Below, piece by piece: positions 61,983-62,723 of a DNA stretch of 64,000 bases; positions within the stretch are counted from its first letter, which is position 1, and each line of letters opens with the position of its first letter. The DNA lies in IMG/VR virus record IMGVR_UViG_3300033233_000006, positions 67,252 through 131,251 of that record; one strand, 5' to 3'. Source of the DNA: a virus. Both the position numbers and the translations under genes were made by a program. The notes beneath the pieces were generated by a model that did no database searches, had not been told where the DNA came from, and was given only the letters and a program-made list of their open reading frames with translations.

Positions 61983-62711
61983 CCGTCGAATGGGCTTGGG
62001 ACTACATCGACTGATATCGAAGGATGCGAGTTCGACTCTCGCCCGGTCCAATGGGCTAGTAATCAGTCGACAGAGTCGCTATGCTGCGGGCATCGGGAGA
62101 GTCTGGTGCCCCAACTCGTCTGCGCCAATCCGAAGTGCGGGCGCTCGTTCTACTCGAAACACGCTGAGGCCCGCTTCTGTTCTCGTCGGTGCGCCAACTC
62201 GGCGAACCAGGCCGCTCGCGCCGGTCGTCCGCGCGTCTACTCCGACGAGGAGCTGATCACTGAGCTTCAAACCCTCGGCGCCAAACTCGGACGAACGCCG
62301 TCGAGACGGGAGATCGGCGGAGCGCTGCCGAACAAGTGGACTTACTCCAACAGGTTCGGATCGTGGAACAACGCTCTGGTGCTGGCTGGCTTCTCGCCAC
62401 GCGAGGGAACGGTTCCGATCGGGCCAAGCGGAGCGCGCCCATCGCTTCCACTGGGGCAGCGCTTTCGCGTGATGCAGCGCGACGGGTTTCGCTGCGTCTA
62501 CTGCGGAGTCACTCCCGAGGACGGTGCGAAGCTGGTCGTGGATCATCGAATTCCGGTAAGCGGCGGCGGTCTGACCGCCGACGAAAACCTCGCCACGGCC
62601 TGCTGGCCTTGCAACGTCGGCAAGTCGAACAAGGTGGCCGATGCGGTGGTAGAACGGGCCGGTAGCTCAACGGCAGAGCAAGCTACGTCTCCGGTCGACC
62701 TTCATCGACGG
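61983..62711 (+). ncRNA. YrlA-type Y RNA (unit 4) with ~605-nt HNH insertion in the acceptor-stem loop
   Basis: 5' half 61983-62050: CCGTCGAAT..GGGACTACATC, T arm GCGAG-TTCGACT-CTCGC, CCGGTCCA. 3' half 62656-62711: GGGCCGG, D arm TAGCTCAACGGCAGAGCA, TACGTCTC..CTTCATCGACGG. Confidence 0.8.
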
Positions 62712-62723
62712 CCTTCCACATGA
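62106..62723 (+). CDS. HNH homing endonuclease inside the Y RNA gene
   Basis: GGGAG RBS before GTG 62106; YSDEEL..LGRTPS..Y..RFGSWNNAL..AG repeat; RF.V..RDGF.C.YCG...DH.IP...GG.....NL..AC..CN.GK. Confidence 0.9.
   Translation: MPQLVCANPKCGRSFYSKHAEARFCSRRCANSANQAARAGRPRVYSDEELITELQTLGAKLGRTPSRREIGGALPNKWTYSNRFGSWNNALVLAGFSPREGTVPIGPSGARPSLPLGQRFRVMQRDGFRCVYCGVTPEDGAKLVVDHRIPVSGGGLTADENLATACWPCNVGKSNKVADAVVERAGSSTAEQATSPVDLHRRPST

What the first reader, a model, noticed from the sequence alone, without database searches (positions are those of the whole stretch)
61983..62723. Y RNA split by a homing endonuclease: possible two-piece, alanylatable YrlA
Seen: the YrlA order (Ro stem 5' strand, T arm, acceptor 3' strand, loop, acceptor 5' strand, D arm, Ro stem 3' strand) is intact, but the normally short loop is ~605 nt (62051-62655) and carries an HNH gene whose frame runs through the 3' half. 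The acceptor is a full 7-bp GGGCCGG/CCGGTCC with A73 and a G3.U70 pair, the established AlaRS identity element. Inference: as in two-piece tmRNA, RNase P and 3' trimming could excise the HNH segment and leave a two-piece Y RNA with a real acceptor end that could receive CCA and alanine. This would make the insertion harmless with no splicing, a self-excusing niche for a homing endonuclease.
Basis: partly seen in the sequence, partly recalled or inferred. Interest (0 to 1): 0.88.

Follow-up and report, generated by a model that had tools for sequence, protein, structure and literature searches.

The report
Nuclease gene splits phage Y RNA
A selfish DNA-cutting-enzyme gene sits inside the end loop of a small phage RNA that normally partners the Ro60 protein, at the one spot where the cell's own tRNA-trimming enzymes could cut it out and leave a two-piece RNA, and a second, unrelated phage shows the same arrangement.

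Summary
At 61983-62711 (+), 1 kb downstream of a phage Ro60 gene, lies a YrlA-type Y RNA. Its 7-bp acceptor-like stem (62043-62049 / 62656-62662, G3.U70, unpaired A73 at 62050) is separated by 605 nt holding an intact HNH endonuclease gene (GTG 62106, stop 62721-62723).

With the insert removed in silico, the RNA keeps 26 of 26 invariant columns and 21 of 22 consensus pairs of 48 uninterrupted YrlAs.

- Among 118 distinct Y-motif plus T-arm units in my loci, it alone has a long loop.
- The only other full-length member of this HNH family with visible DNA context (L251, an unrelated viral contig) sits at the same topological place.
- Three viral contigs carry the same acceptor helix closed by 5-9 nt.

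Two-piece YrlA is not new: M. smegmatis YrlA is cut by RNase P and receives CCA (PMC4201824). G3.U70 plus A73 is a family trait (27 of 61 closed YrlAs), not an adaptation of this copy.

Processing and alanylation remain untested. Folding the window's full precursor does not favour the acceptor helix, whereas L251's does.

Verdict: a real new variant of known kinds, whose function is unproven. This scan's notes report nuclease genes in two-piece tmRNA spacers on other DNA.

The parts
59179..60978 (+). Ro60 (TROVE + vWA) gene, the context that defines the RNAs downstream as Y RNAs
   Evidence: Pfam vWA_Ro60 5.9e-13 and TROVE 4.3e-07. 5587 homologues at E<=1e-30, the nearest non-self at 64% identity. 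Best cultured-phage match is Myxococcus phage Mx1 at 42%.
61983..62025 (+). Split YrlA, 5' half: Ro-binding stem 5' strand (GNCGAA-type motif, GGGACTACATC) and a small hairpin in the variable region
   Evidence: The terminal stem 61983-61989 / 62705-62711 has pair probability 0.63-0.999 in the full 739-nt precursor.
62026..62042 (+). T arm (5-bp stem, 7-nt TTCGACT loop)
62043..62050 (+). Acceptor 3' strand CCGGTCC (62043-62049) plus unpaired A73 (62050). No encoded CCA.
   Evidence: The phage's own two tRNA-Ala genes and its tmRNA also lack an encoded CCA.
62051..62105 (+). Leader of the insert, with Shine-Dalgarno-like GGGAGAG at 62095-62101. Bases 62053-62057 can pair locally with 62045-62049.
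   Evidence: The local pairing has probability about 0.4. Weak likeness to the 3' half: 9 of 2000 shuffles reach the score, but so do 279 of 18251 other windows.
62106..62723 (+). HNH endonuclease gene (205 aa: N-terminal Cys-rich part, HNH_repeat, HNH). The last 21 codons are read from the YrlA 3' half and the stop overlaps ATG 62720 of the next ORF.
   Evidence: Pfam. Alignment with 8 homologues of 170-203 aa: seven end 0-10 residues after the GKSxx motif, and one has a longer unrelated tail. GC3 is 0.749, against 0.931 for Ro60 and 0.861 for the next ORF.
62656..62662 (+). Acceptor 5' strand GGGCCGG (G1-C72, G2-C71, G3.U70, C4-G69 ...)
62663..62680 (+). D arm (TA, stem GCTC/GAGC, loop AACGGCA with GG)
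62681..62711 (+). Ro-binding stem 3' strand (ACGTCTC ... CTTCATCGACGG)
61060..61127 (+). Short Y RNA (YrlB-like, no tRNA-like domain), same locus
   Evidence: R1 gives 9.3 bits.
61138..61593 (+). Phage tmRNA (G3.U70, A73, no encoded CCA)
   Evidence: Rfam RF00023, 117.9 bits, E 1.9e-45. ARAGORN did not call it.
61910..61975 (+). Second short Y RNA, directly upstream of the split YrlA
   Evidence: R1 gives 24.3 bits, E 1.8e-06.

Best explanation
A free-standing HNH homing-endonuclease gene, with its own leader and ribosome-binding site and no intron, has settled in the loop that closes the acceptor-like stem of a phage YrlA-type Y RNA.

Shown: the anatomy, the intactness of both RNA halves and of the nuclease gene, and a second occurrence of the same nuclease family at the same topological place in an unrelated viral contig.

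Inferred:
- The region is transcribed with the Ro60 gene, the other Y RNAs and the tmRNA.
- The two halves pair, Ro stem first.
- The tRNA-like top, which has the exact 7-bp acceptor stem that makes M. smegmatis YrlA an RNase P substrate, is cut by RNase P before G1 (62655/62656).
- It is trimmed to A73 on the other side and receives CCA.
- The Y RNA would then work as two paired pieces and the insertion would cost the phage little.

Alanine charging of the freed end is chemically plausible (G1-C72, G2-C71, G3.U70, A73) but is the least supported step.
For: Anatomy and intactness:
- 7 of 7 acceptor pairs, 26 of 26 invariant columns, 14 of 18 near-invariant columns and 21 of 22 consensus pairs after in-silico removal of the insert.
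- The two-strand fold of the halves gives the acceptor, T, D and Ro helices.

Rarity of the long loop:
- Of 118 distinct units with a Y 5' motif plus T arm, 59 close the acceptor within 20 nt and 4 were flagged with loops over 60 nt.
- Three of those four are mispairings to neighbouring units. Only the window's is real.

Precedent:
- M. smegmatis YrlA, which has a 7-bp acceptor stem, is cleaved by RNase P RNA in vitro.
- In vivo it exists as 82-nt and 65-nt halves, both in Rsr immunoprecipitates, and the 5' half ends in CCA (PMC4201824, passages; repeated in 10.1101/312249).

Second case:
- Of 70 viral loci with a relative of this HNH, only L251 covers residues 1-175 (44% identity).
- There the gene lies between T arm + CCGGGGT + A and ACCCCGG + D arm. 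The gap is 607 nt against 606, there are 7 of 7 Watson-Crick pairs, and its own TAA lies 4 nt before the acceptor 5' strand.
- Its 806-nt precursor is predicted to form the long-range acceptor helix (P 0.93-1.0) and a long stem (P 0.8-1.0).
- The stem strands give a duplex of -61.0 kcal/mol, and 2 of 300 dinucleotide shuffles reach that value.
- The two contigs share almost nothing else.

Uninterrupted counterparts:
- 3 viral contigs hold CCGGTCC-A-(5-9 nt)-GGGCCGG-TAGCTCA inside YrlA-like units.

Transcription:
- No promoter-like or terminator-like site was found in 58800-63600. This is weak evidence.

Acceptor identity:
- G.U at pair 3 occurs in 31 of 61 closed YrlAs, against 24 of 366 at the other six pairs.
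- 25 of those 31 have exactly 7 bp with an unpaired base 73, against 9 of the other 30.
Against: - There are no RNA data and no close relative of this phage, so intact halves may only mean a recent insertion. The HNH GC3 of 0.749, against 0.86-0.93 in neighbouring genes, fits a newcomer.
- In the 739-nt precursor the long-range acceptor helix has probability about 0. The 3' strand pairs locally with the leader (P about 0.4) and GGGC pairs inside the ORF. Forcing the tRNA-like helices costs 7.1 kcal/mol.
- The HNH frame has no stop before the RNase P site, so maturation and nuclease expression conflict, and ribosomes would unwind the 3' half.
- The phage has four other Y-like units, so losing this one may be tolerated.
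- L251's RNA has lost 7 of 26 invariant columns, including the Ro-motif positions and two D-stem pairs. It is not a clean second YrlA, and no Ro60 gene is on that fragment.
- The energy z-scores for the window's halves are weak: -1.6 and -1.75.
Confidence: 0.5

Rival explanations
1. Dead gene. The HNH insertion is recent and simply inactivated this YrlA. The halves look perfect only because no time has passed, and the phage relies on its other Y RNAs.
For: - Only one sequence of this allele is known.
- HNH GC3 is lower than in the flanking genes.
- The precursor fold does not form the acceptor helix.
- The ORF reads through the 3' half.
- Four further Y-like units are in the genome.
- L251's RNA shows loss of conserved positions.
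Against: - The same HNH family sits at the same place in an unrelated contig, with 7 of 7 acceptor pairs and a long stem that only 2 of 300 shuffles match. That is hard to keep in a dead gene if the insertion is old.
- 26 of 26 invariant columns are kept here.
- A loop that is cut out anyway in M. smegmatis is the one place where an insertion need not kill.
Confidence: 0.3
2. Uncut hybrid. The RNA is not cleaved. The Ro stem clamps the ends of an HNH messenger, so that Ro60 binding or the stable stem controls nuclease expression or stability. The tRNA-like top is irrelevant.
For: The terminal Ro stem is predicted at P 0.63-0.999 across 700 nt while the acceptor helix is not. The stop codon lies beyond the 3' half.
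Against: The T arm, D arm and acceptor strands are all conserved. A 7-bp acceptor stem made M. smegmatis YrlA an RNase P substrate. L251 keeps the acceptor helix at P about 1.
Confidence: 0.12
3. Swap cassette. The nuclease cassette entered further inside the 3' half and brought or created a fresh copy of the acceptor 5' strand and D arm. The leader 62051-62090 would be the decayed original.
For: The leader aligns with the 3' half from the base after A73 onward, and 9 of 2000 shuffles reach the score.
Against: 279 of 18251 other 41-nt windows of the same DNA score as high. The same test in L251 is not significant, with 525 of 2000 shuffles reaching the score.
Confidence: 0.05
4. Self-splicing intron. 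The insert is a group I or II intron carrying the HNH gene.
For: HNH genes often live in introns (PMC2988022, passages).
Against: No intron family matched at E up to 10 in 61550-62800. Only 55 nt of the 605 lie outside the ORF. Homologues are 170-203 aa stand-alone proteins.
Confidence: 0.02

Closest known systems
M. smegmatis YrlA (Chen et al. 2014, PMC4201824)
   Same: A YrlA with a 7-bp acceptor-like stem next to Ro60. It is cut by RNase P in the loop, the 5' half receives CCA, and both halves stay with Rsr. The authors raised aminoacylation as a possibility (passages).
   Different: There the loop is short and holds no gene. Here 605 nt with a nuclease gene would have to be removed, and none of the processing has been observed.
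Circularly permuted (two-piece) tmRNA genes (Rfam RF04321 and relatives)
   Same: A tRNA-like acceptor formed by two strands encoded apart, with the intervening segment removed by tRNA-type processing and an alanine identity. Notes of this scan on other DNA report nuclease genes in such spacers (not tested here).
   Different: A different RNA family and partner (Ro60 rather than SmpB and the ribosome). The window's own tmRNA is one-piece.
Genes in pieces made by free-standing homing endonucleases (mobE in Aeh1 nrdA, mobA in T4 gene 39/60; review PMC2988022)
   Same: An intron-less HNH gene inserted inside a functional gene, whose two parts reassemble (passages).
   Different: Those are protein genes whose polypeptides reassemble. 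Here the two parts would be RNA strands held by base pairing and released by host RNases.
T4 SegB and other nucleases in phage tRNA clusters
   Same: Free-standing homing nucleases associated with tRNA-like genes. 14 of 70 loci with relatives of this HNH hold tRNA or tmRNA genes.
   Different: They sit between genes, not inside one.
Permuted tRNA genes of Cyanidioschyzon (cited in 10.1101/312249)
   Same: The same gene order, with the 3' half before the 5' half and the acceptor closed by a loop that is opened by RNase P/Z (passage).
   Different: Those mature into ordinary tRNAs through a circular intermediate. Nothing suggests that here.

Membership tests
YrlA-type Y RNA (Rfam RF02553; Chen et al. 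2014) | Encoded beside a Ro60/Rsr gene | tested here: met
   The Ro60 gene ends at 60978, on the same strand, 1 kb upstream.
YrlA-type Y RNA (Rfam RF02553; Chen et al. 2014) | Ro-binding stem formed by the 5' and 3' ends, with the GNCGAA(N)G motif | tested here: met
   The motif is at 61984-61991. The terminal stem 61983-89 / 62705-11 has P 0.63-0.999. All invariant columns of the 5' strand are kept.
YrlA-type Y RNA (Rfam RF02553; Chen et al. 2014) | tRNA-like module in the order T arm, acceptor-like stem, D arm | tested here: met
   R1 scores the 5' half at 33.5 bits.
YrlA-type Y RNA (Rfam RF02553; Chen et al. 2014) | One contiguous RNA of about 100-140 nt that reaches Rfam's gathering score | tested here: not met
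   There was no RF02553 match at gathering or at E up to 10, because of the 605-nt insert. The model does find uninterrupted members used in my alignment: L106 at 80.4 bits and L107 at 70 bits.
YrlA-type Y RNA (Rfam RF02553; Chen et al. 2014) | Bound by Ro60 | not testable with these tools
   Needs immunoprecipitation.
Two-piece RNA matured by tRNA enzymes (M. smegmatis YrlA, two-piece tmRNA) | Exact 7-bp acceptor stem stacked on a 5-bp T stem, with an unpaired base 73 | tested here: met
Two-piece RNA matured by tRNA enzymes (M. smegmatis YrlA, two-piece tmRNA) | The acceptor helix forms in the precursor | tested here: inconclusive
   P is about 0 in the window, at a cost of +7.1 kcal/mol. P is 0.93-1.0 in L251. 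The model ignores tertiary contacts and proteins.
Two-piece RNA matured by tRNA enzymes (M. smegmatis YrlA, two-piece tmRNA) | Observed ends at base 73(+CCA) and at base 1 | not testable with these tools
   No RNA run is listed for this DNA.
Substrate of alanyl-tRNA synthetase | G3.U70 with A73, G1-C72 and G2-C71 | tested here: met
   G3.U70 as the main determinant is taken from the abstracts of PMC8583063 and PMC6451123 in the listing.
Substrate of alanyl-tRNA synthetase | Free 3' CCA end; charging observed | not testable with these tools
   CCA is not encoded and no experiment exists.
Free-standing HNH homing endonuclease | HNH catalytic domain with conserved residues; intact ORF with its own start signals | tested here: met
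   Pfam. All 44 invariant columns of the 9-sequence alignment are shared by construction. SD plus GTG.
Free-standing HNH homing endonuclease | Occupied and empty versions of the same site | tested here: inconclusive
   Three closed-loop units have the identical acceptor helix, but in distant contigs. There is one second occupied site. There is no empty allele of a close relative, and no joint skipping the insert in 2 runs.
Free-standing HNH homing endonuclease | Cleaves the empty site | not testable with these tools
   Needs an enzyme assay.
Intron-encoded endonuclease | Ribozyme core around the ORF | tested here: not met
   Only 55 nt are non-coding.

The most novel reading that the evidence does not exclude
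A lineage of HNH homing endonucleases has specialised on the acceptor loop of back-to-front tRNA-like Y RNAs. There the host's RNase P and 3'-end enzymes act as a free 'splicing' service: they release the nuclease messenger as a discrete piece and leave a two-piece Ro60-binding RNA.

The freed end carries the full alanine identity set, as in nearly half of all 7-bp YrlAs. It therefore receives CCA and alanine, or recruits alanyl-tRNA synthetase. This would make many Ro60 particles carriers of a charged tRNA-Ala mimic.
Probability: 0.15. Interest if true: 0.85.

Novelty: new variant of a known kind. Interest (0 to 1): 0.62.

Why it matters
If the two halves work together, this would be an RNA counterpart of the protein 'genes in pieces' made by homing endonucleases. 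It would also be a way for a selfish gene to live inside an RNA gene without an intron, relying on tRNA-processing enzymes.

It offers a natural test object for a question left open since 2014: whether YrlA RNAs with a true 7-bp acceptor stem are opened, CCA-tailed and perhaps charged.

The survey done here sharpens that question. G1-C72, G2-C71, G3.U70 and A73 occur together in 27 of 61 closed-loop YrlAs. Four loops even begin with ACCA. No paper in the searched library holds both 'YrlA' and 'alanyl'.

If the gene is simply dead, the finding is an ordinary insertion.

Tried and rejected
Close relatives
- megablast of 59000-64000 against cultured phages gave no match.
- The Ro60 single-protein scan of viral contigs gave none.
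- The Ro60 profile scans gave 80 metagenome and 68 viral loci, all at 49% identity or less.
- The next ORF (62720-63148) has no relative in viral contigs.
- The HNH has no match covering 80% or more of the query in cultured phages: 0 of 99 records.

Sequencing runs
- 2 runs are listed and no RNA holder is listed. One run may be the source of this DNA.
- The other holds a small share, including 183 identical bases of the tmRNA.
- No joint skips the insert in either run.

M. smegmatis YrlA
- Two primers from PMC4201824 found nothing in genome contigs. I could not check whether the experimentally cleaved YrlA has G3.U70.
- The supplements of that paper, which list phage YrlAs, were not seen and may bear on novelty.

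Other checks
- An empty site for L251's helix in viral contigs gave 0 stretches.
- The cofold energy against shuffled 3' halves is a poor test in this G+C-rich DNA (z = -1.6).
- The likeness of the leader to the 3' half was rejected as evidence after the window-wide control.
- The WIN and L251 leaders are not significantly alike: 445 of 2000 shuffles reach the score.
- The two ORFs upstream of Ro60, which a note calls HNH, have no Pfam family at E <= 0.001.
- My regex sets are not exhaustive. 45 of 118 units had no partner by the rule, mostly other Y classes or stems that are not 7 bp.
- The Fisher test ignores relatedness. There are 10 distinct acceptor strands, in 27 of 45 loci.
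Full report
WHAT IS THERE

The window is part of a 131-kb viral record with G+C 0.646 and a 34-gene tRNA array outside the window.

A Ro60 gene (59179-60978; Pfam vWA_Ro60 and TROVE) is followed on the same strand by these units:
- a short Y RNA (61060-61127);
- a tmRNA (61138-61593; Rfam 117.9 bits);
- an odd unit described under 'In passing';
- a tRNA-like body (about 61837-61908);
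- a second short Y RNA (61910-61975);
- the finding itself.

Four copies of CGAAT-N7-GGACTACATC mark the Y RNA 5' strands (8 matches at up to 3 mismatches against 1.23 expected; 0 of 100 shuffles reach 8).

THE SPLIT RNA

Read directly, the parts are:
- Ro-stem 5' strand from 61983;
- T arm 62026-62042;
- acceptor 3' strand 62043-62049;
- A73 at 62050;
- 605 nt of insert;
- acceptor 5' strand 62656-62662;
- D arm 62663-62680;
- Ro-stem 3' strand to 62711.

The order is that of YrlA as described in the passages of 10.1101/312249. The acceptor helix is exactly 7 bp, with G.U at the third pair.

To judge the split RNA against real YrlAs, I collected Ro60 loci (80 from metagenomes; 68 viral) and motif loci. 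From these I extracted 61 distinct uninterrupted units by rule and aligned 48 of the 61. RNAalifold gave 22 pairs, 16 of them with compensatory changes.

Some members reach Rfam's YrlA gathering score, for example L106 at 80.4 bits and L107 at 70 bits. The window's RNA with the insert removed by script keeps 26 of 26 invariant columns, 14 of 18 near-invariant columns and 21 of 22 pairs. Two of the four near-invariant misses are the two sides of one T-stem pair that changed from G-C to A-U.

The covariance model R1 finds the 5' half at 33.5 bits (E 3e-09) and the D-arm half weakly at 11.7 bits (E 0.011). Rfam's own model sees nothing.

THE INSERT

Pfam finds HNH_repeat and HNH. Eight homologues of 170-203 aa start at the residues encoded from GTG 62106. 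Seven end 0-10 residues after the GKSxx motif, and one has a longer unrelated tail.

So the gene is 62106-62723, preceded by GGGAGAG. Its last 21 codons are borrowed from the YrlA 3' half. An out-of-frame TAG lies 3 nt before G1. In L251 an in-frame TAA lies 4 nt before the acceptor strand, so a frameshift in the window's tail is possible. This is inference.

No intron family matches. GC3 is 0.749, against 0.931 and 0.861 in the flanking genes.

HOW UNUSUAL IS IT

Of 118 distinct units with a Y 5' motif and a T arm:
- 59 close the acceptor within 20 nt;
- 45 have no partner by my rule;
- 10 have a partner but no Ro 3' strand;
- 4 were flagged as long.

Three of those four are mispairings with neighbouring units. 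The window's alone is real.

A SECOND CASE

Among 70 viral loci with a relative of this HNH, only L251 matches over residues 1-175, at 44% identity. It has the same Pfam domains.

Its gene lies between a T arm, CCGGGGT and an A on one side, and ACCCCGG and a D-arm-like hairpin on the other. A scan of the 70 loci plus the window for such flanks gave 7 hits against 1 in a control. Only these two hits span the nuclease gene, with gaps of 607 and 606 nt.

- The 806-nt L251 precursor is predicted to form the long-range acceptor helix (P 0.93-1.0) and a long stem.
- The stem strands alone give -61.0 kcal/mol, a value reached by 2 of 300 dinucleotide shuffles.
- The two viral records share little else: one 77-residue match besides the HNH.
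- L251's RNA is diverged. It keeps 19 of 26 invariant columns, the Ro motif is altered and two D-stem pairs are broken. No Ro60 gene is on that 47%-complete fragment.

CLOSED-LOOP COUNTERPARTS

Three viral contigs carry the window's exact acceptor helix and A73, closed by 5-9 nt, inside YrlA-like units. Two of these three lie in tRNA arrays. They are not close relatives, so they show that the uninterrupted state exists. They do not show an empty allele.

WHAT IS KNOWN

Chen et al. 2014 (passages) showed that M. smegmatis YrlA is cleaved by RNase P RNA in vitro. The authors single it out for its 7-bp acceptor stem. In vivo it exists as two halves, the 5' one CCA-tailed, and both are recovered with Rsr. 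They mention possible aminoacylation.

The two-piece idea therefore has an experimental precedent. What is new is the gene in the loop. Free-standing nucleases that split protein genes whose parts reassemble are reviewed in PMC2988022 (passages).

THE ALANINE QUESTION

- G.U at pair 3 occurs in 31 of 61 closed YrlAs, against 24 of 366 at the other six pairs.
- 27 of 61 have G1-C72, G2-C71, G3.U70 and A73 together.
- 4 of 61 loops begin with ACCA.
- 25 of the 31 have exactly 7 bp with an unpaired base 73, against 9 of the other 30.
- There are ten distinct acceptor strands, in 27 of 45 loci.

The counts are not corrected for relatedness.

The window's identity set is therefore inherited. It says that this whole subfamily copies the tRNA-Ala acceptor, not that this copy is charged. 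The terms alanine, AlaRS, tRNAAla, synthetase and U70 do not occur in PMC4201824. The terms alanyl, wobble and G-U do not occur in the preprint. No library paper holds both YrlA and alanyl.

AGAINST THE FUNCTIONAL READING

- In the window's 739-nt precursor the Ro stem forms (P 0.63-0.999), but the acceptor helix has P about 0.
- A local pairing with the leader has P about 0.4, and the tRNA-like fold costs 7.1 kcal/mol.
- Such models ignore tertiary contacts, proteins and translation.
- RNase P cleavage would leave the HNH message without a stop codon.
- There are no RNA data.

My recollection, from no call, is that RNase Z cuts CCA-less precursors after base 73. If so, the insert would be released by two tRNA enzymes.

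VERDICT

- That this is an HNH gene lodged in a YrlA acceptor loop: near certain.
- That the RNA still works as two pieces: about even odds.
- That it is alanylated: about one in six.

IN PASSING

- The unit at 61664-61740 has a Ro-type 3' strand upstream of a 5' strand of the matching GGGAG/CUCUC subtype.
- The phage holds a fifth short Y RNA in its tRNA array.
- Bacterial Ro60 loci commonly hold arrays of several different Y RNAs.

Noticed in passing
Loci L106-L182 and L025, L205, L208, L212 (61 units listed): About half of the uninterrupted 7-bp YrlAs copy the tRNA-Ala acceptor. 31 of 61 have G3.U70 and 27 of 61 also have G1-C72, G2-C71 and A73. 25 of the 31 have exactly 7 bp. Four loops (L114, L115, L156, L174) begin with ACCA. 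I did not find this stated in the two YrlA papers read as passages, nor in a library search for YrlA plus alanyl.
   Followed up: partly
window 61664-61740: A Ro-stem 3'-type strand (61664-61698) lies upstream of a 5'-type strand (61712-61740), joined by a small CCCGG/CCGGG hairpin. Both are of the GGGAG/CUCUC subtype, which covaries in bacterial Y RNAs. It is either a permuted unit or the junction of two broken units.
   Followed up: no
window 61837-61908: A tRNA-like body in normal order, with D and T arms and a 6-bp acceptor, in which the anticodon arm is an 8-bp bulged stem with a 4-nt loop. Neither ARAGORN nor Rfam calls it. R1 sees its T arm at 14.6 bits.
   Followed up: no
G000:C1:53495-53580 (outside the window): A fifth short Y RNA with the same 5' and 3' motifs, inside the 34-gene tRNA array. 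It lies just after an ORF with an HNH-like stretch (tblastn E 2e-04) and just before tRNA-Arg(cct).
   Followed up: no
window 61138-61593: The phage tmRNA scores 117.9 bits in Rfam but is not called by ARAGORN. It has a long insertion in the region after the resume codon.
   Followed up: no
window 58033-58488 and 58638-59291: Two ORFs just upstream of Ro60 share a Cys-rich N-terminal part and an FDHVRG...CANCH stretch that looks HNH-like by eye. Pfam finds no family at E <= 0.001. The second ORF overlaps the start region of the Ro60 gene.
   Followed up: partly
L251 3156-3266: Directly downstream of the split RNA in L251 lies an uninterrupted back-to-front tRNA-like unit (R1 46.2 bits, E 2.5e-13). 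It has a 7-bp acceptor closed by 7 nt but no recognisable Ro 5' motif.
   Followed up: no
window 62050-62090 versus 62652-62700: The HNH leader aligns with the YrlA 3' half starting at the base after A73. 9 of 2000 shuffles reach the score, but so do 279 of 18251 other windows. It may be a decayed duplicate or chance.
   Followed up: yes
L108, L114, L115, L129, L130, L138 and others: Bacterial Ro60 loci often carry three to five different Y RNAs in tandem: short units, T-arm-only units and full tRNA-like units. The pairs GGGAC/GUCUC, GGGAG/CUCUC and GGAAC/GUUUC covary between their 5' and 3' strands.
   Followed up: no
window 62720-63151: The next ORF (143 aa, no Pfam family, no relative in viral contigs) starts at an ATG that overlaps the HNH stop (ATGA), only 9 nt after the end of the Y RNA. 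No Shine-Dalgarno-like sequence is evident to me.
   Followed up: no
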